Assembly: GCA_026770705.1 (NCBI GenBank)
Contig: JANJGN010000151.1
Location: 186,001-250,000 of the forward strand
Origin: Isurus oxyrinchus
Lineage: Eukaryota
Length of the DNA: 64,000 nucleotides
Direction of reading: 5' to 3'
The notes below the pieces were generated by a model, which saw only the letters and a program-made list of their open reading frames with translations, did not search any database and had not been told where the DNA came from. How positions within the stretch are numbered: the first letter of the stretch is position 1; the number at the start of each line of letters is the position of its first letter. The position numbers and the translations under genes are program-made. Shown in pieces: positions 130 to 51,031 of the stretch.

Positions 130-628
130 ATGGGGAACCGTCTCGCTCCGCTCCTCATCATTATCTCACTTCTCAGTAAGTATTTCCTTCCTGGAAAAAC
201 TAGATTCTCCTCCTGACAATGTAGCCCAGATGCTATTGTTGGTAAGAAAAAACTGATGATGATGATTATGTTGATTAAAATGAGGCTGAAGCTAATTGTT
301 GTTTTTACTATATTTTCACGTTAGAATGGAGCCACCCAGACACAGTGGAACAACGGGTTGCTGAAATAACGGCGGAAGAAGAAAGAAATGCTACCCTAAC
401 TTGCACCTTGAAAACAAGCGATTCTAACCCTTATGTGTACTGGTACAGTCAGCGCCTTGGGCAGCCTCCAAAGTACATGCTCCATATCCTGGGAGGGGAG
501 GTATACAGACACACCGACATTCCCGACCGCTTTTCAGCTACGTTGAATAAAACAGCTAAGATTACCGAGCTAATGATCTGCAACGTCCTGATCTCTGACA
601 GTGCGGTCTATTTCTGTGCCACGCAACC
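130..628 (+). CDS. TCR alpha/delta-type V segment, family A, apparently functional (leader 130-175, intron 176-324, V exon 325-628)
   Basis: Leader MGNRLAPLLIIISLL + A|gtaag donor; ttag acceptor; spliced frame open: KWSHPDTVEQ..LTC..YWYSQ..DSAVYFCATQP; RSS follows. Confidence 0.9.
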
Positions 629-3890: not shown

Positions 3891-4358
3891 ATGAACAGAA
3901 ACCCCTGCAAAGGCCTGTTTACAATAGGGTCCCTGATGCTCTGGATATTGTGTGAGTTTATTTACCTAGTCAGATGCATTGTCTAACCAATCTCTTAATA
4001 CCCTGTCGTAGTTTGTGGAATTTTCCCTCTGTTTACAGTCGTTCAGTTTGAGGATCAGAGCTCCCACCCTGAGCAGGTGGTGTGTCGGGAAGGGGAACGG
4101 GTTGAAATGAGCTGTCGGCTCTCTATTGGCTCTGGTCATACAGTAGCCTGGTACAGGCAAACACTGTCAGGGGCTCCGACACTTACTGGCTCCTAATATC
4201 AGGAGAGCGGACAGAAGGACGCTCCGCATTGTTCTTTGATCGAGTGAAGAATTTCAACACCATATCTATAGACAACACAGCCGTCCAGGACGCCGGAATC
4301 TATCACTGCGTGAAGCAGACACAGTGAGACATAGAGCGGATCAGGCCGTACAATATCT
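3891..4358 (+). pseudogene. TCR V pseudogene (leader 3891-3951, V 4039-4319, RSS 4320-4358)
   Basis: Leader MNRNPCKGLFTIGSLMLWIL|gtgagt; EGERVEMSC..AWYRQ, frameshift near 4180, DAGIYHCVKQ; CACAGTG-23-ACAATATCT; CCAAT and TATA-like motifs at 3717-3767. Confidence 0.88.
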
Positions 4359-6270: not shown

Positions 6271-6610
6271 GGTTTCTGTACGGACTCTGTTTGCTACACT
6301 GTGGCCTCACGCACAGAGATAGGTGGTGCTGTCTGTCATTTGGATGTCCCTCAAGGTCATTGTGCTAAATTTATTGACTCACCGGATTGCAACAGTGATC
6401 CTTCCTTGTTGATCGGTACCACATGTGGCCATAACCAGATGCTGGAGGGGCTGTTACGGGCGGAGTCTGTCCCAGTACGAGACGGTAGCCGAGCAGTTCA
6501 TGGATACGATTCCCACGTCACTGAGAACCAGCCGCCCAGGGAGCTGCACAACCTCAGCTTCACTTGAGAAGTGCATAAACCATCACGAAAACCCAGTAAA
6601 TCTGGAACAT
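6271..6610 (-). pseudogene. TCR V pseudogene, family C (single-exon leader+V)
   Basis: ataATG at 6610; EAEVVQLPG..SMNC..QPLQHLVMAT..TDSTTYLCA*; CACAGTG with spacer shortened to 17 bp and ACAGAAACC. Confidence 0.82.
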
Positions 6611-7364: not shown

Positions 7365-7590
7365 TGCCCCTCAACTCACAGGCAGCACTAAAACTCAGTC
7401 TTTCTCCAGGACACCAGCTCACACTCTCTGAGTTCACACTGGGCTGCCTACACTCAGTGTTTCTCATTGAGACAGTTCACGCTCTCTGAGCTCAAACCGG
7501 GCCACCCATACTCAAAGTCTTTGACGGAGACCTGCGGACACTCTCTGAGCTCATACTGTGGTGCCTACACCCAGTAGTTCACATTGCCCT
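7365..7590. repeat. ~59-bp tandem repeat (~4 units) upstream of family-C genes
   Basis: Unit acactctctgagctca..gggc..cctacactca; homologous arrays at 10380-10530 and 35100-35222. Confidence 0.75.
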
Positions 7591-9864: not shown

Positions 9865-10230
9865 GGTTTCTGTACGAGCTCTCAGTTTGTTTGTTACACT
9901 CATGGCACTTAGATAGGAGGCAGTGTCTGTAACTTGCGTATCCCTCATGGCCAGGATACTAAGTTTGTTGTCTCCCCCGACTGAAGCAGAGATCCTCCCG
10001 TGTTGATCAGTTCCTCTTGTGGCCACTACAAGATGTTGGGGTGGCTGATTGGGGAGCTGCCTGTACCAACACACCACGTTCATCCCACTGATGATGGTGC
10101 AGTTCATGGATACGATTCCCGCTTCACTGACAACAATTCACACTGGGAGCTTCGTCACCTCATCTTCACCGGTCACTTCAGTGGAGATCAGAATGGATAA
10201 GAGAAAACAGACTCTGTAAATCCACAGCAT
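9865..10230 (-). pseudogene. TCR V pseudogene, family C (single-exon leader+V)
   Basis: MLWIYRVCFLLSILISTEVTG-EDEVTKLPV*..MNC..CWYRQLPNQPPQ..TDTASYLSAM; stop, Cys104->Ser, heptamer CAC deleted; nonamer ACAGAAACC 9865-9873. Confidence 0.88.
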
Positions 10231-15299: not shown

Positions 15300-15820
15300 A
15301 TGTTCCTGATAATACTGGATAGTAAGTATTGGACTGTGTTCATCAAGGCAAGTTAGCAGATTGATGCAAAGAGTTTGCAATAGGATGTAATGCGATTAGA
15401 CATCTTGATAGGTGGGAATTTGCACATACAGATAGATGCAGGTTTAGATTGAACCTTGTGCTTTTTTGTACCTCTAACTCCACAGGCGGACTATTTGCAG
15501 ATCCAGTGACTCAGTCTCCACTGACAACAACCGTGTTAGATGGGGGTTCTGTGCAGTTACATTGTGAATATAAAACCCTGGATATTGAGTATATGCAATG
15601 GCATCGGCAGAAGCCTGCACAGACTCCAGGCTGGATAATCAGCAGGACAGTAGTGCTGAAAGAAGACAAAATCTGAGGGCAATATCTGGCGGCTGCTGAC
15701 AGGTCTACAAGGTCTGGTTACCTCAATATAAGTGGACTGAGTGTGGAGAAGGACAGCGTGGTCTATTACTGTGTAGTGAGGCACAGCGCCAGATAACAGC
15801 CACGACGCTGTACAAAAATC
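15300..15820 (+). pseudogene. TCR V pseudogene, family D (short leader 15300-15321, V 15486-15781, RSS 15782-15820)
   Basis: DPVTQSP..VQLHC..QWHRQKP..KI*GQY..DSVVYYCVVR; single TGA at 15674; CACAGCG-23-ACAAAAATC. Confidence 0.9.
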
Positions 15821-16770: not shown

Positions 16771-16921
16771 CTGCCAGTTGCATGAGATATAATGTACGTA
16801 ATTTGTAAAAAAAAAGCGCAATTCTATATAACATACAATAATAAAATACAAAATAACAAAATACAAGATGATAGAATACTGGAAAATGCAATCCAACAGA
16901 ATATAGCATAATTATATTTCT

Positions 16922-16940
16922 ACACACACACACACACACA

Positions 16941-16983
<43 letters not shown>

Positions 16984-17000
16984 AGATACACACATACATA
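16922..17000 (+). repeat. (CA)n microsatellite
   Basis: Direct reading. Confidence 0.95.
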
Positions 17001-17039
17001 TATTTCGAAAACAGGCAAATAGTGAAATTTGAATTCAAT

Positions 17040-17270
17040 ACAAATCTGGGAATATGTCCATGAAACGACTGTCGGTTGTCTTAAAAAGCATCTGGTTCAT
17101 TTATGCTCTTTAGGGCAGGAAATCTGCCATCCTTATTTGGCCTGACCAACATGTGACTCTGGTCCCACAGCAATGTGGTTGACTCTCAAATGCCCTTTCA
17201 TCAAGGTCAATTAGGGAGGGATGGGCAATAACTGGTGGCCTAGACAGCGACGCCTACATCCCATAAACGA
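17040..17270 (+). mobile_element. SINE fragment
   Basis: Matches the 3' part of 38540-38910. Confidence 0.7.
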
Positions 17271-18659
17271 ATAATATATATTATACTGTACAACATAATA
17301 TATAATATAATATTATAATATACTGTTAGACTATATGTATTACAATATATGTGATATTATAGGCACTTAATGATGTGTGCTGCACTCACATAGACGATAG
17401 AGTGTGAAATCCAGAATTGCCACCATTTCGTGTCCTATCAACTTGGGTAAATTAACTGTCGGCAGATCCAGGCCAGGGTAGCTGCTTCTGGAGAAGTCAG
17501 TGCTGTTGTGCATCAATCTTAACGAACACCAGAACACTGTGCCCGCTAGAAGCAGACTTCTGGGACTCCACCTCACAGTGTTAACTGTGAGGGAGGTTCT
17601 TGCTCAGCTTTGGTTGAAAGTGGGAGGGGCGTTCGCCTCGTCATCCTGAATCAGACCGAATAATGAAAACAGAGAGAACACAAAGACTGAACAATGATCT
17701 CTGAGATCCTCCCAAAGGTGTTCATTTAAACCAGGTCAGCAGGTGGCGGTGCCGATTCGTTGTGTCTGCCACTGGCCATATTGCCCCAAAGAATGCTGAC
17801 TGGCATTTGCTTTCATCTAAATTAACGAAAAAAAATATTTCAGCCCTTCGATTTGAACTCATAACATTCTATCTTTGCTAATGCCAATAATTTCATGGTT
17901 TACTTGATTACAAATAAGCTAGCTACTCAACTTGAAAGTTTGAAATTAAATACATTTGCCATTAGGAATTACAATTCCGATTGGGTTGGGATTTTTCGGT
18001 CATCCAAAGTCTGCTTTTGCCCGCACACTTCAATCCGAGATCAATGGTGAAGGCATTTGCAGTTAAATAATAACATTGGAGTTCATTTCGTGAACCTGGG
18101 GCTAACATGGTTCTCATAGAGAGGTGGAGCTACATCATTTTCAATGGGCATATTATTATAGAGGCAACGTCCTCAAGCTCGTTTTGTGCATGTGCTGTAC
18201 AGGCAAAGGCTGCAATTAAGCAGCGACGACAGATATGATATCCTTTTGGCCCTGCCAATGTTAAGATATCATGAAAAGGTAACCTTTCCTGTCAGTATCC
18301 AAGGTGTTCTCGACAGAATTCCCTGTAAATTGGAGGCCCGTGGATTCCCGGATCTCTTTCACATTCATCTGCAGTTATTATAGCAACACCAACAGGTCTG
18401 TGTGGTTTCCATTTTACCTTGTTAGTGTTCAATGTTTAAGGAAATTCTACATTTTGTTTCAGCTGCTTTAATTGTTTGTATTCACCACCTCCCCCAACCC
18501 CAACACCGCCGCCACCTCCCTCCCCCTCCACCTCCCCACGACCACCGCCCCCCCTCACCCCTCCGTGCCCCACAACACCCCCCCCCCCCCCCCCCCCACC
18601 CCTTGGCTGGGAGAATCCGTTTACTGGCAGCGATAATGCTGACGTCTCCCTTGAATTCA

Positions 18660-21953: not shown

Positions 21954-22451
21954 ATGCGGCAGCTCAGCCTCTGGGTTCTGTGGGGAGCATTACTGACAGG
22001 TAATCGAGGACCACACACATTTCATCTTCATCTTTCACATTTTCCGCACATCCTTTAAATGTTAAATACCCGCTGGTCTGATTTATTTTCTGTTTCAACA
22101 TGTTCAGAACTAATTCATGGAGATTTTGTAAGAGCAGCTGCCCTCAGATGCTCAGGCAAAAGGCGAAGTGGTGACTTTAAGCTGTAGCTATCATACGACA
22201 AAAAACAGCTCTTGGCTATACTGATATAGGCTACAGCTAGACGCCCAGCTCGGGTTTTTATTGCTGAAATCCACGAGCGGTTATGAAGAAAAAACAAATT
22301 TTGCCCAAATCCGTTTCCCAGTCGAGTTCCAGTCCTCCACGAAATTCACCAGTTGAACCATCTCGGGTCTGCAGCTGACTGACGCTGCCGTGTATTGCTG
22401 CACTCTCACACTCACAGTGATGGAAAACAGTCTCACCCCTGTGCGCAAACT
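21954..22451 (+). pseudogene. TCR (delta-like) V pseudogene, family E (leader 21954-21999, V 22108-22412, RSS 22413-22451)
   Basis: MRQLSLWVLWGALLT|gtaat; frameshift; LSCSY..LY*YR..ISGLQLTDAAVYCCTLT; CACAGTG-23-GCGCAAACT. Confidence 0.9.
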
Positions 22452-25748: not shown

Positions 25749-26208
25749 TCGATCTGATCGGGCGAATCCACAAAGGTAGAGTGCCGTGTCGCTCAGCTGA
25801 AGAGCAGTGACTGTTAAAACAGACATTTTTGACGATTTGTTTATTACAGATCTGAAGCGATTCCCAATGTTTTCCGCTTTCCCTCCACTGCCACTGGTAC
25901 TTCTCCACACTATCATCTCCGGGCGATCATCGGGATACTTTCGGTACCAGTACAGGTCATACCAGGTTGCTGTTGTCGAATAGCTGCACTGCGTTCTGAA
26001 CGTCTGTCCGATTTTCAGGACGACTGTTGCCCAAACCTGGGACACAGAATCTTCGTGACTCAGATCTAATTGAAAGTATAGATTACAACTGAATTGTGAA
26101 TTTTCTAAGAATCAGTGAGTTTTTAATGGTTTGTACTATAACTTCCCATGTAGACTTACCAAATGCTAAGTAGGTGAGGGTAGTTAAAAGGGTGAATTTT
26201 AAATGCAT
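25749..26208 (-). CDS. TCR delta-like V segment, apparently functional (leader 26160-26208, V exon 25749-26065)
   Basis: MHLKFTLLTTLTYLAF G|gtaagt; ttag acceptor; DLSHEDSVSQ..TQCSYS..LYWYRKYP..LQLSDTALYLCGFARSD, open frame, near-consensus RSS. Confidence 0.92.
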
Positions 26209-34574: not shown

Positions 34575-34946
34575 GGTTTCTGTACGAGAGCCACATATGT
34601 TTTTTACACTGTGGCCCACAGCGCAGAGATAGGTGGCAGTGTCTGTAGCTTGGGCATCGCTCACAGTCAGGATACTGAGTTTGCTGCCTTCACCGATTGA
34701 AGCCGTGATCCTCCCTTATTGACCGGTTCCTCTTGTGGCCATTACCAGATACTGGGGTGGCTGATTCGGGAGCTGTCTGTACCAAAACATGAAGTTAAAC
34801 GCTGTGGTGCGAGTGCAGTTCATGGTTACGATTTCCGCTTCCCTAAAGACCACCTGCCCAGGGAGCTGCACCACCTCATCCTTACCGGCCACCTCCTTGT
34901 AGATCAGAGTGAAAAACAGCAAACAGATTATGTAAATTCTGATCAT
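34575..34946 (-). pseudogene. TCR V, family C (single-exon leader+V 34614-34946), one premature stop
   Basis: MIRIYIICLLFFTLIYKEVAG-KDEVVQLPG..MNC..FWYRQ..GQ*GRI..TDTATYLCAVG; CACAGTG-23-ACAGAAACC. Confidence 0.9.
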
Positions 34947-35730
34947 TATCAGATCACATGAAAAAGCGGCTGAAACGATTGCCCAGGGAGGTCAGGTTAG
35001 AAGCAGAAGATGGATATTATATTCAGCAGAATTAACAAGAAGCTACACACGGGCTTCAGGTCCAACTCAGAGGCGCCTTATTGTCGAACTAACATAAGAA
35101 GCTTAGTCTTGGGATTTACCCGCCCACACTCAGCGTGTCACACTGACACCAGCTCACACTGTTTGTGATCTCGCTCCGGTCCGCCCACATTCAAGTTTCT
35201 CATTGGTTCACACTGCTCTCTGATGGCATGTACCGGTAAGTACGTGAGTTCCCGCCAAGCTACAGTACACAATATAGTTAGATAGACAAATTAGAACAGC
35301 TATTCTCTCCCTCTTACAATAGGTTTCTTTTCGGGGGAGACCCTACACCTCACCTTCAACTGCAGCATCCAACGATTCGAGTGCATTGTCCTTCCGCATT
35401 CTGACTGAAGCTTTATTCCAGATTGTGATCATTCTCAGTGTGACAACAGGAAGATTTGCCCAACAGTCTCCTTTCATATTGTGAACCCGTGTGCTTCCCC
35501 ACTTGAATGCAGCGCAAACTTTTTTTTTCAAATATTAACAACATGCCAACAATAATAGCAACATTGACAGCTCATTATAATGAATTACGTTAAACAATAT
35601 AAAACATGCTATGAATATTAAAATATTTTTTGTTTCCACATGTGTTCCTTCAATGACATTTTCTTCAATAAAGTTACCGAATATTGTTCTCAGTCTGGAA
35701 TTCTCCCCAACACTGATCACAACAGTCTCC

Positions 35731-42545: not shown

Positions 42546-42756
42546 CTGAAGCTCCCTCAAAGCTTCACTTTGTGATGACAAGTCCTAGAGACCCGAGTCC
42601 TCCAGACAAAGTGTAATTGATGTTGGGTTCAGTTTGATTACACAACAGCGATGCCTTCGCCAGGTCCCTCTCTTGATTTGAATCTTCTGATTCACCAATT
42701 GCCTGAAAACAGATGTAAGACTGTCCCTGTAAATACAAGTCGATAACAGCCGACGC

Positions 42757-42814
42757 ATGAATCTGAGCTTCACTTTAGTGATTACTTTCCTGGATATCTT
42801 ACTCTTTCCAACGC
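42757..42814 (+). pseudogene. Orphan family-F leader exon
   Basis: MNLSFTLVITFLDILLFPT, paralog of 48379-48436; donor lost, no matching V exon. Confidence 0.7.
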
Positions 42815-42929
42815 ATGAGGGTGATCTCTATTTCTGACAGCAATATTTCACTCATCAGATCCGTTATCTTCTGCTGGACTTTGCTATATTGTATTATCTT
42901 GTACGATGCTGAATTGTAATTTTACAGGA

Positions 42930-45569: not shown

Positions 45570-46100
45570 ATGGGGAACCGTCTCGCTCCGCTCCTCATCA
45601 CTTCTCAGTAAGTACTTCCTTCCCAGTAAAACTCCATTCTCTTCCTGATGCTGTAACCCAGATGTTGTTTTTAGTAAGAAAATGGTGATGTTGATGACGA
45701 TTATGTTTACTTAAATGAGGCTGATGCTGATTGTTGTTATTGCTATTGTTTTATGTTAGAATGGAGCCAACCAGAGACAGTGGAACAACCGGTTGCTGAA
45801 ATAACGGCGGAAGATTAAAGTAATGTCACACTAACTTGCACCTTGAAAACAAGCGATTCTAACCCTTATGTGTACTGGTACAGTCAGCGCCGCGGGCAGC
45901 CTCCACAGTACATGCTTCACATTCGGGGAGGGAAACAATACAGACACACCGACATCACCGATCGCTTTTCAGCTATGTTAAATAAAACAGCCAAGATTAC
46001 CGAGCTAATGATCTGCAATGCCCTGATCTCTGACAGCGCGGTATATTTCTGCGCCAGAGAGCCCATACTGTTGCAGAGACGTGGACCCCGTTCAAAAACC
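45570..46100 (+). pseudogene. TCR V pseudogene, family A (leader 45570-45607, V 45760-46063)
   Basis: 8-nt leader deletion, TAA after AED; otherwise very close to 130-628; CATACTG-21-TCAAAAACC. Confidence 0.9.
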
Positions 46101-47190: not shown

Positions 47191-47935
47191 AATCAGATTT
47201 GAAGATACCCATTCCAATCCCCACCCTTAATAGTTTGCTGCTATGTGTCAGGTAGTTTTCATCTCACTTCTTTGTGTCTCCATGGGTCCGTGAGATCCTT
47301 CGGTGGTGAGCTGACTGACATTGAATGGAAAAATCCTGAGCTGGACTACAGTCAGATAGGGGAAATCCTGCACTTTTAGAGATGGGCGTGGTGGTGGGGG
47401 GAGGTGGGGGGGCGCGGAGTTCAATCCTGATCTGTTCATTATCACTAGCAAATTTGGGATTGTTAATGGGTACAGAAAATATTCCAGCATTGAATGAACA
47501 TTCTGAAGCTCAATGGTCAGTGGGTGAACTCGAGATCTGAAGTTTGTTTTAGACATCACAGTCACTGCCTGGTGAGCTGGGTTCATTGTGTATAAATGGG
47601 GAAGGGTTGTTCAATATTACAGACAGGCACTGAAACTGCATAAAAAGGCAATAAGTAAATGAAAGTGATCAAATTGATTTATGAAAATCGATTATGGTAC
47701 AAATTCGAGTTGAAATCAACTAATATAATTGCGCAAGTGTTCCTCAGCTCTTCTTCTTTGCTGCTGTTATTAGGTGTTTTAGGAAGGTCCCTGTGACCCT
47801 CACTGTGGAGGCTCCTTTATTGCTTTTGTTTAGCCGGAGTGAGACTGCCCGCTCTGATGTCTGTACCGATTACAATCCGTCAGCGTCTCGCTGGCAGGTG
47901 TTTGTACGATCTCTACTGATCTTTGCTGGACTGTG

Positions 47936-48436
47936 TCCCAACCGCATAGAAATAAGTGGTGGTGTCTGTCACTCGAGCGTCACTAACATTCAGAGCACTG
48001 CTCTTCTCTACTGCAATCAACCGAGCTGTGATCCTGTCCCGAACACTGGCCAGGTGCTGCACGATTCTGTCCGGGTGTTGCCTGTACCAGTGTAGGATCT
48101 GTCCTCCTACTCTAATGGAACAGCTGAACGATGAAGTTTCTCCTTTGGTAGCAACCACTGACTTGGGAGATTGTGACATTTCTTCACTGTCAGTGGAGTC
48201 TGAGAAGAATATGTAGATATAGAGTAATAAGATGAAATCAATATTATCTAGCACAATAAACTATAATATAGCACAATAAGAACAAGATAATAGAAGATAT
48301 GCAATAAAGTAAAGTACAATGTAAAACAACATAAGGGATGTATAAAATATTCTGGTCAGGAATAGTGAGCACACTAACACGGAGGGAAAAGTAAGAAATC
48401 CAGGGAGATGATCACTAAAGTGAGGCTCAGCTTCAT
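47936..48436 (-). CDS. TCR V segment, family F, open frame but second Cys replaced by Tyr (leader 48379-48436, V 47936-48199)
   Basis: MKLSLTLVIISLDFLLFPP T|gttagt; ttctcag acceptor; EEMSQSP..FSC..HWYRQ..TDTTTYFYAVG; RSS CACAGTC-23-ACAAACACC at 47897-47935. Confidence 0.75.
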
Positions 48437-50560: not shown

Positions 50561-51031
50561 GGTATTTGTACGGGATACGCTATATCTCTGCAGCAGTGTG
50601 GGCTCCATGGCACAGAAATACACGGCGCTGTCGGAGAGAAAAGCCCCAGCGGTATTTAAAGGAACCGTTTTGTTCCCATTGTGCAAAACAGTGGAGAATC
50701 TATCTGGGAAATCTGGAAATTTTCTGCATTCCCCGAGCTATATATCTTCATTAAATATCTCGGAGCTTCCCCGGGGTACTGGATGTACCAGAACAGAGTT
50801 ACACCAGCTGCCGAATAAATACATTCCAGTTTTATGCCTTGTCCTTCAAGAGCCGCTAATTTAGGGGGATCCTGGGACACTGAATCTTGACCATTTGTTC
50901 CTGGAACAAAACACAGAACGTATCAAATATCTGGAATTGAATATAACAAATGGAACAGACATGGACCATTTAAACATTGACTCACCATGCAGTAAGATCA
51001 TTATTATCATTAAAGGGCACTGGGAGCATAT
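50561..51031 (-). pseudogene. TCR V pseudogene, family B (leader 50986-51031, V 50601-50900)
   Basis: Start ATG->ATA; QDSVSQDPP..LEC..FWYIQYPG, frameshift ~50720, DSAVYFCAMEP; CACACTG-24-ACAAATACC. Confidence 0.9.

What the first reader, a model, noticed from the sequence alone, without database searches (positions are those of the whole stretch)
34614..34946. V family with leader and V domain in a single exon
Seen: three family-C members (ATG at 6610, 10230, 34946; all ataATG) have a hydrophobic signal peptide contiguous with FR1. It is in frame in two (MIRIYIICLLFFTLIYKEVAG, MLWIYRVCFLLSILISTEVTG) and deleted/frameshifted in the third. No conserved phase-1 acceptor exists, yet each retains an RSS or RSS remnant. 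Related family F keeps its intron. Known: V genes nearly always have a leader intron; from memory, exceptions include an avian V-alpha group and marsupial TCR-mu Vmuj. Inference: intron loss via cDNA of a germline transcript, either ancient and shared with sauropsids or convergent.
Basis: partly seen in the sequence, partly recalled or inferred. Interest (0 to 1): 0.7.

Follow-up and report, generated by a model that had tools for sequence, protein, structure and literature searches.

The report
Shark TCR V family lacking leader intron
A large family of shark T-cell-receptor variable genes carries its predicted signal peptide and its binding domain in one unbroken stretch of DNA instead of the usual two exons, likely because one ancestor lost the intron, separately from the same change already known in chickens.

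Summary
The family is real and large. All 40 best genome hits run ATG-leader-V with no intron, and 18 of them are intact with a 23-bp RSS. Twelve further broken copies agree. A contig with family members also holds 81 J segments and a C-alpha-type gene, so this is the TCR alpha/delta locus of a shark. Sister family F keeps a phase-1 intron in the matching register. DNA runs from two studies bridge the junction. Probable-RNA contigs from two studies carry the 5' region running unspliced into the leader, but none spans the leader-V junction. A tree test rejects a shared clade with bird TRAV1-type genes (p-AU 0.006), which favours convergence. The route of loss is not shown: cDNA recombination is likeliest, with repair deletion and intron exonisation still open. 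The architecture is known from chicken TRAV1/TRGV1; I found no shark report, but four key papers on shark or chicken TCR loci and the first chicken report were not held.

The parts
34895..34946 (-). ATG + 52 nt: equivalent of leader exon 1 (17 codons + 1 nt), copy C3
34884..34894 (-). 11 nt equivalent of leader part 2 (E-V-A-G), directly joined to the 52 nt; same register as F's 11 nt after its acceptor
34614..34883 (-). V region of copy C3 (TRAV-like), broken by an in-frame TAA at 34718-34716
   Evidence: intact paralog L002 hits Pfam V-set and human TRAV12 chains
34575..34613 (-). RSS CACAGTG-23 nt-ACAGAAACC
34947..35245 (-). 5' block conserved across the family (likely promoter and 5' UTR); holds a weak CAG at -23 and, in some paralogs, a cryptic donor at -130
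9865..10230 (-). Copy C2: single-exon leader+V pseudogene (TGA 10140-10138, second Cys lost, heptamer damaged, nonamer 9873-9865)
6271..6610 (-). Copy C1: diverged single-exon pseudogene, 14-nt deletion over the junction, several stops, RSS with 17-nt spacer
47897..48436 (-). Comparator, family F pseudogene: exon 1 48436-48379 (58 nt), phase-1 intron 48378-48200 (179 nt), V exon 48199-47936, 23-RSS

Best explanation
This is an expanded shark TCR alpha/delta V family whose predicted signal peptide and V domain lie in one exon ahead of a 23-bp RSS, likely because one ancestral gene lost its leader intron exactly, likely by recombination with a cDNA in the germ line, and likely independently of birds. 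Shown: single-exon layout in all 52 loci examined, 18 intact copies, linkage to a J array and C-alpha-type gene, intron kept in the sister family. Inferred: intact copies would be transcribed from the conserved 5' block, joined to a 12-RSS J (or D) by RAG, and translated from the in-exon ATG with no leader splice. Inferred: the loss happened once, before the family radiated by duplication. Least certain: the cDNA route.
For: Layout: 40 of 40 best DNA hits (40 scored of 87 candidates) are intronless and 18 of 40 are intact with CACAGTG-23-ACAGAAACC, 11 of them on contig C26 alone; 12 of 12 further family loci are intronless. Register: 52 nt + 11 nt in C against 58 nt | intron | 11 nt in F; exon 1 is 34-46 nt, phase 1, in 7 of 7 other shark V genes measured. 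Coding constraint: leader dN/dS 0.52 against 0.46 for the V and 1.08 for CDR1 (5 x 4 intact copies, non-independent pairs, no significance test); mismatches by codon position 0.18/0.28/0.38; GC 38% against 43% for F exon 1 and 24% for F intron ends. Hydrophobic core and basic N-end in 19 of 19. No upstream leader-exon candidate within 1.5 kb in 16 of 19 loci. Locus: contig C242 holds family members at 114 and 276 kb, 81 J segments at 660-743 kb and C-alpha-type exons at 749-752 kb. Not an assembly artefact: contigs of 3 of 4 DNA-like runs (2 studies) bridge the junction. Probable RNA: contigs in 2 of 4 runs (2 studies) match intact copy L021 unspliced from the 5' region into the leader, and L018-like V sequence. 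Tree: C with two bamboo shark models and one JGI ORF forms one group (95/99), next to F plus a chimaera V (94/72); bird TRAV1-type rows sit elsewhere, and forcing them with C is rejected, p-AU 0.0062.
Against: No RNA contig spans the leader-V junction and none shows a V-J join; RNA status of those runs is the tool's guess. SignalP was not available, so the signal peptide rests on hydrophobicity; two intact copies have weak cores (KD 1.7-1.9). C's leader shows no significant nucleotide likeness to F exon 1 (1 of 24 pairs p<0.05; p 0.18-0.68), so exactness of the loss rests on length and register only. No hallmark of retro-processing was found: no poly-A run over 7 nt within 800 nt downstream in 11 loci, and C-F promoter likeness is not above window background. 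The C+F branch is below the star threshold, the alignment has only 91 columns, and the bird rows were assigned to TRAV1 by the QVQQ motif, their introns not examined. The exon structure of the bamboo shark models could not be seen.
Confidence: 0.5

Rival explanations
1. Same single-exon family and same independent origin, but the intron was removed exactly by double-strand-break repair or plain genomic deletion using a short repeat at the two splice sites, with no RNA step.
For: End joining is a proposed route to precise intron loss (PMC3652778, passages). Codon 17 is usually Thr followed by G, and three broken copies read CAG at the junction, which could have matched the acceptor CAG. No retro-processing hallmark was found. 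These genes would need germ-line transcription for the cDNA route, which I did not test.
Against: The same paper found micro-homology no commoner at lost than at kept introns in rodents. The ancestral donor cannot be read.
Confidence: 0.23
2. The leader is not the old exon 1: the old exon decayed and a shrunken intron supplied a new ATG and a hydrophobic stretch (exonisation).
For: By eye the C and F consensus sequences share short words around F's donor and acceptor; one gap setting gave p 0.01-0.04 for this model. A chimaera gene model appears to read an intron end as a leader-like stretch (my reading), so such stretches can arise.
Against: Another gap setting favoured exact loss instead (p 0.01-0.03) and gave p 0.6-0.8 for this model. 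With both intron ends anchored p = 0.093, and 5 of 10 unrelated introns scored a higher z than F's. nhmmer found no C-F hit upstream of the V exon. GC content and codon-position pattern are exon-like, and the length fits a normal exon 1.
Confidence: 0.17
3. The true leader is an upstream exon spliced in, and the in-frame hydrophobic stretch is intron read-through.
For: A phase-1 CAG at -23, open to the ATG, is present in 17 of 19 loci. One probable-RNA contig splices an upstream piece into the V exon. L010 and L014 have a leader-like ORF with a donor at about -1035.
Against: The -23 CAG is missing in two intact copies and in several diverged ones, and the L021-type RNA contigs cross it unspliced. 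The spliced contig matches pseudogene L017 exactly at its 5' piece, joins a non-coding piece at -130 to +170 in FR2 and removes the ATG, so it is non-productive. The -1035 ORF lies in a segment not shared with the other subfamilies. No AG at +52 in 19 of 19 loci.
Confidence: 0.05
4. One very old intron loss shared with bird TRAV1.
For: Chicken TRAV1 has the same layout (PMC10972964).
Against: AU test rejects the clade, p 0.0062; C lies next to intron-bearing F, and the bird rows group loosely (81/87) with lizard and alligator V domains and an intron-bearing shark V, L135.
Confidence: 0.05

Closest known systems
Chicken TRAV1 (V-alpha-1) and TRGV1 single-exon leader V genes (PMC10972964, passages; it cites Gobel 1994 and Parra and Miller 2012, neither held)
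   Same: Unrearranged TCR V segments with leader and V in one exon, a 23-bp RSS, and a large family in the alpha/delta locus (45 of 48 chicken TRAV1 by the paper's listing).
   Different: Different V lineage (AU test); shark rather than bird; sister family with intron present in the same locus.
Marsupial TCR-mu V-mu-j (PMC2275272, PMC6170632, passages)
   Same: TCR V without the leader intron; retrotransposition or intron deletion were both proposed.
   Different: V-mu-j is pre-joined to D and J and sits in a separate locus; family C is unrearranged, keeps its RSS and is a multi-copy array member.
Canonical split-leader TCR alpha/delta V genes (human TRAV12-like by sequence; shark family F and others in this locus)
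   Same: V-set domain, Cys/Trp/Cys, 23-RSS, same 11-nt leader part 2 register, same locus.
   Different: Lacks the phase-1 leader intron that PMC12227049 calls canonical for all antigen-receptor genes.
Germline-joined shark IgL (NS4) and catfish TCR genes (PMC2193156, PMC6170632, passages)
   Same: Germ-line remodelling of antigen-receptor genes in fish.
   Different: Those are V(D)J-joined and keep the leader intron, the reverse of family C.

Membership tests
TCR alpha/delta V gene (TRAV/TRDV) | Ig V-set domain with Cys, Trp, Cys | tested here: met
   Pfam V-set above cut-off for 4 of 4 proteins; motif present in 18 of 40 loci; many top PDB hits are human TRAV12 chains
TCR alpha/delta V gene (TRAV/TRDV) | 3' RSS with 23-bp spacer | tested here: met
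   CACAGTG-23-ACAGAAACC in 25 of 40 loci, including all 18 intact
TCR alpha/delta V gene (TRAV/TRDV) | Linked to a J-alpha array and C-alpha | tested here: met
   Contig C242: family members, 81 J with 12-RSS, C and TM exons of alpha type; the window's contig C151 was not itself linked to C242; alpha assignment of the TM motif is from recall plus tblastn to stored TCR proteins
TCR alpha/delta V gene (TRAV/TRDV) | Rearranged and expressed with C-alpha or C-delta | tested here: inconclusive
   Probable-RNA contigs of L021- and L018-like copies in 2 of 4 runs, no V-J join seen
Canonical split-leader V gene | Phase-1 intron between leader part 1 and part 2 | tested here: not met
   Absent in 52 of 52 loci examined
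Single-exon leader V genes of the chicken TRAV1 kind (architecture) | ATG, leader and V in one exon before an RSS | tested here: met
Single-exon leader V genes of the chicken TRAV1 kind (architecture) | Leader is a working signal peptide | not testable with these tools
   No SignalP; hydrophobicity and dN/dS are compatible
Avian TRAV1 (lineage) | Same V clade as bird TRAV1 | tested here: not met
   p-AU 0.0062 with two bird QVQQ-type proteins
TCR-mu V-mu-j / germline-joined V | Pre-joined V(D)J, RSS gone | tested here: not met
   RSS retained, no J follows
Retroposed processed gene | Poly-A tail, new location away from the parent locus | tested here: not met
   No A-run over 7 nt in 800 nt downstream of 11 loci; all 40 hits lie on six contigs; family F V genes were also found on five of them and the J array on the sixth. 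Target-site duplications not tested

The most novel reading that the evidence does not exclude
The signal peptide of this shark V family was born from the leader intron itself: the old exon 1 decayed, the intron shrank and gained an ATG, and the new leader was then kept under purifying selection while the family expanded to dozens of copies and persisted in distantly related sharks.
Probability: 0.15. Interest if true: 0.7.

Novelty: new member of a known kind. Interest (0 to 1): 0.4.

Why it matters
The split leader is treated as a near-universal mark of antigen-receptor V genes (PMC12227049; chicken V-alpha-1 is called unique in PMC10972964). A second, independent, expanded and apparently functional single-exon family in sharks shows the leader intron is dispensable and was lost more than once. 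It gives a natural test of what the intron does for V transcription and usage: compare family C with intron-bearing neighbours in one locus. It also means V-gene finders that demand an AG acceptor would miss a sizeable shark V family. It does not imply a new receptor type or new recombination chemistry.

Tried and rejected
Literature: 10 searches (listings read only) showed no report of a shark V family without the leader intron. Parra and Miller 2012, Criscitiello 2010, Deiss 2019, Ott 2021 and Gobel 1994 were not held, so absence from print is not established; the chicken FASTA supplements could not be read. No RNA holder was listed for L002; run X10 laid nothing and X7 only an unrelated 36-nt match. 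Two metagenome scans did not recover the JGI contig or relatives. Pfam PF09291 did not ring in the genome; C-alpha was found through the J array instead. Homolog searches returned 1, 1 and 4 proteins, with no rearranged shark cDNA. C-F promoter homology looked positive against shuffles (10 of 24 pairs) but not against real window background or by nhmmer, so I dropped it as evidence for in-place loss. The exonisation resemblance failed its controls. My automatic splice search resolved only 12 of 30 F-type loci correctly; acceptors were located in 13 of 14. The -1035 leader-like ORF was rejected as part of an unshared segment (repeat-like by recall). No structure or complex was predicted, as neither bears on the question.

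Full report
Observation. The window is C151:186001-250000 of a 4.98-Gb genome. The nearest named homologs are bamboo shark gene models, so the organism is taken to be a shark. The three ATGs are on the minus strand at 6610, 10230 and 34946. At 34946 the frame runs from MIRIYIICLLFFTLIYKEVAG into FR1 and on to YLCAVG, followed by CACAGTG-23-ACAGAAACC, but it holds a TAA at 34718-34716. The 10230 copy has a TGA in FR1, no second Cys and a damaged heptamer. The 6610 copy has a 14-nt deletion over the junction and a 17-nt spacer.

The family. A genome search scored 40 of 87 candidates, at 74-100% identity, on C26 (23.9-40.2 Mb) and five smaller contigs. All 40 run ATG-leader-V without an insertion; 18 are open and end in the same 23-bp RSS, 11 of them on C26 alone. 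The small contigs may in part be alternative haplotypes, so 18 may overcount. Of 20 weaker protein hits fetched, 12 belong to the family and are also intronless, and 8 belong to other families. Contigs of three of four DNA-like runs, from two studies, bridge the leader-V junction with 31 nt or more on each side, so this is not an assembly slip; one run could be the source animal.

Locus. Intact copies hit Pfam V-set and human TRAV12 chains. Contig C242 carries family members at 114 and 276 kb, 81 J segments with 12-bp RSS at 660-743 kb, and C and transmembrane exons of alpha type at 749-752 kb. The family therefore sits in the TCR alpha/delta locus. Whether it is used with C-alpha, C-delta or both was not seen.

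Intron state. Family F, the nearest family in the tree, has a 58-nt exon 1, a phase-1 intron of 179-197 nt and 11 nt of leader part 2 (12 of 30 loci resolved; acceptor located in 13 of 14). Family C has 52 + 11 nt in the same register. Seven other shark V genes measured have phase-1 exons of 34-46 nt. No AG lies at +52 in 19 of 19 loci scanned, and 16 of 19 have no leader-exon candidate within 1.5 kb upstream. The candidate in L010 and L014 lies in a segment the other subfamilies lack. A phase-1 CAG at -23 is present in 17 of 19 but is lost in two intact and several diverged copies.

Is the leader real? All 19 N-termini have a basic start and a hydrophobic core, weak in two. Between subfamilies dN/dS is 0.52 for the leader, 0.16 for FR2, 1.08 for CDR1 and 0.46 for the whole V (non-independent pairs, untested). 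Mismatches rise toward the third codon position, and GC content is closer to F's exon than to F's intron. SignalP could not be run.

RNA. No RNA holder was listed. Laying four guessed-RNA runs on L019 gave family contigs in two studies. One type matches intact L021 and runs unspliced from the 5' region (from about -216 in X9) to +31 or +37 in the leader; another matches L018-like V sequence. A third contig, at depth 2, joins a donor at -130 to an AG at +170. Its 5' piece matches pseudogene L017 exactly; the join removes the ATG and is non-productive, but it indicates RNA and a start site upstream of -160.

History. In a 46-row tree (91 columns) family C groups with two bamboo shark models and one JGI ORF (95/99), beside F plus a chimaera V (94/72). 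Two bird proteins with the QVQQ motif that PMC10972964 uses for TRAV1 (sparrow and curlew) fall elsewhere. The bamboo shark models have leaders of the same length and register and read through their RSS, which suggests but does not show single exons. The JGI protein, 58-67% identical to this genome's copies, runs from Met through leader, V and RSS; if it was called as a plain ORF, it is intronless DNA. Its contig was not recovered.

Mechanism. The simplest reading is one exact loss of the leader intron before the family radiated. PMC3652778 (passages) lists cDNA recombination, genomic deletion and end joining as routes, with the first and third able to be exact. I commit to cDNA recombination at about even odds. 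One lost intron cannot separate the routes, no poly-A was found, and C-F promoter likeness did not survive background controls. A kept RSS does not require a transcript through the RSS. I also tested exonisation of the intron. It gave mixed results by gap setting, p = 0.093 when anchored, and was matched or beaten by unrelated introns; it stays a minority reading. My confidence in the single-exon architecture itself is above 0.9.

Comparison and novelty. Chicken TRAV1 and TRGV1 have this layout (PMC10972964, passages). Opossum V-mu-j lacks the intron but is pre-joined (PMC2275272). Germline-joined shark IgL and catfish TCR genes keep the intron. PMC12227049 calls the split leader canonical for all antigen-receptor genes, and the nurse shark TCR-alpha paper PMC5931798 has no occurrence of 'intron'. 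Passages of PMC12529555, PMC5278385, PMC12698447 and PMC8656973 added no exception. Ten searches found no shark case, but five relevant papers were not held. The scan's own notes had nothing on this family. Verdict: a real, likely functional, independently derived shark example of a known architecture; interest 0.4.

Noticed in passing
G000:C26:23.9-40.3 Mb; C151, C152, C140, C242, C301: Family C hits span about 16 Mb of C26 in both orientations. A C3-C2 pair about 25 kb apart recurs at least 9 times at 97-98% identity, pointing to recent large segmental duplications and a very large V array.
   Followed up: partly
L105-L113 (G000:C242:660480-742618) and L113-L114 (749.5-752.2 kb): 81 J-alpha-type segments with 12-RSS and splice donors, followed by C-alpha-type exons; the count is from my motif scan and is a lower bound.
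   Followed up: partly
L120 (G000:C26:27350068-27350843): An immunoglobulin-heavy-like V exon followed by a perfect 12-RSS lies inside the span of the TCR V hits; it could be an Ig cluster or a TCR-associated Ig-like V. IgH-TCR linkage is reported in PMC12227049.
   Followed up: no
L017 type, -130 to +170 relative to the ATG: A probable-RNA contig shows a GT-AG splice from the 5' region into FR2 that removes the ATG and leader; a non-productive transcript whose 5' piece matches a pseudogene.
   Followed up: partly
window 324-628, 4050-4319, 15476-15781, 22100-22410, 25749-26060, 45770-46070, 50601-50930: Other V genes in the window have a separate leader exon and lie in both orientations; most are broken. 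The ones ending at 628 and 25749 look open.
   Followed up: partly
window 42552-42921 (+) and 16814-17595 (-): Two further family F promoter/leader/intron relics.
   Followed up: no
L121-L125 upstream; window 7393-7587 (-): The family's -300 to -230 upstream motif is expanded into a tandem repeat of about 59 bp in diverged pseudogenes; a detached copy lies 800 nt upstream of the 6610 gene.
   Followed up: no
P0067 (chimaera gene model): The N-terminus looks like read-through of an intron acceptor rather than a true leader, a likely annotation error typical of V genes (my reading, DNA not seen).
   Followed up: no
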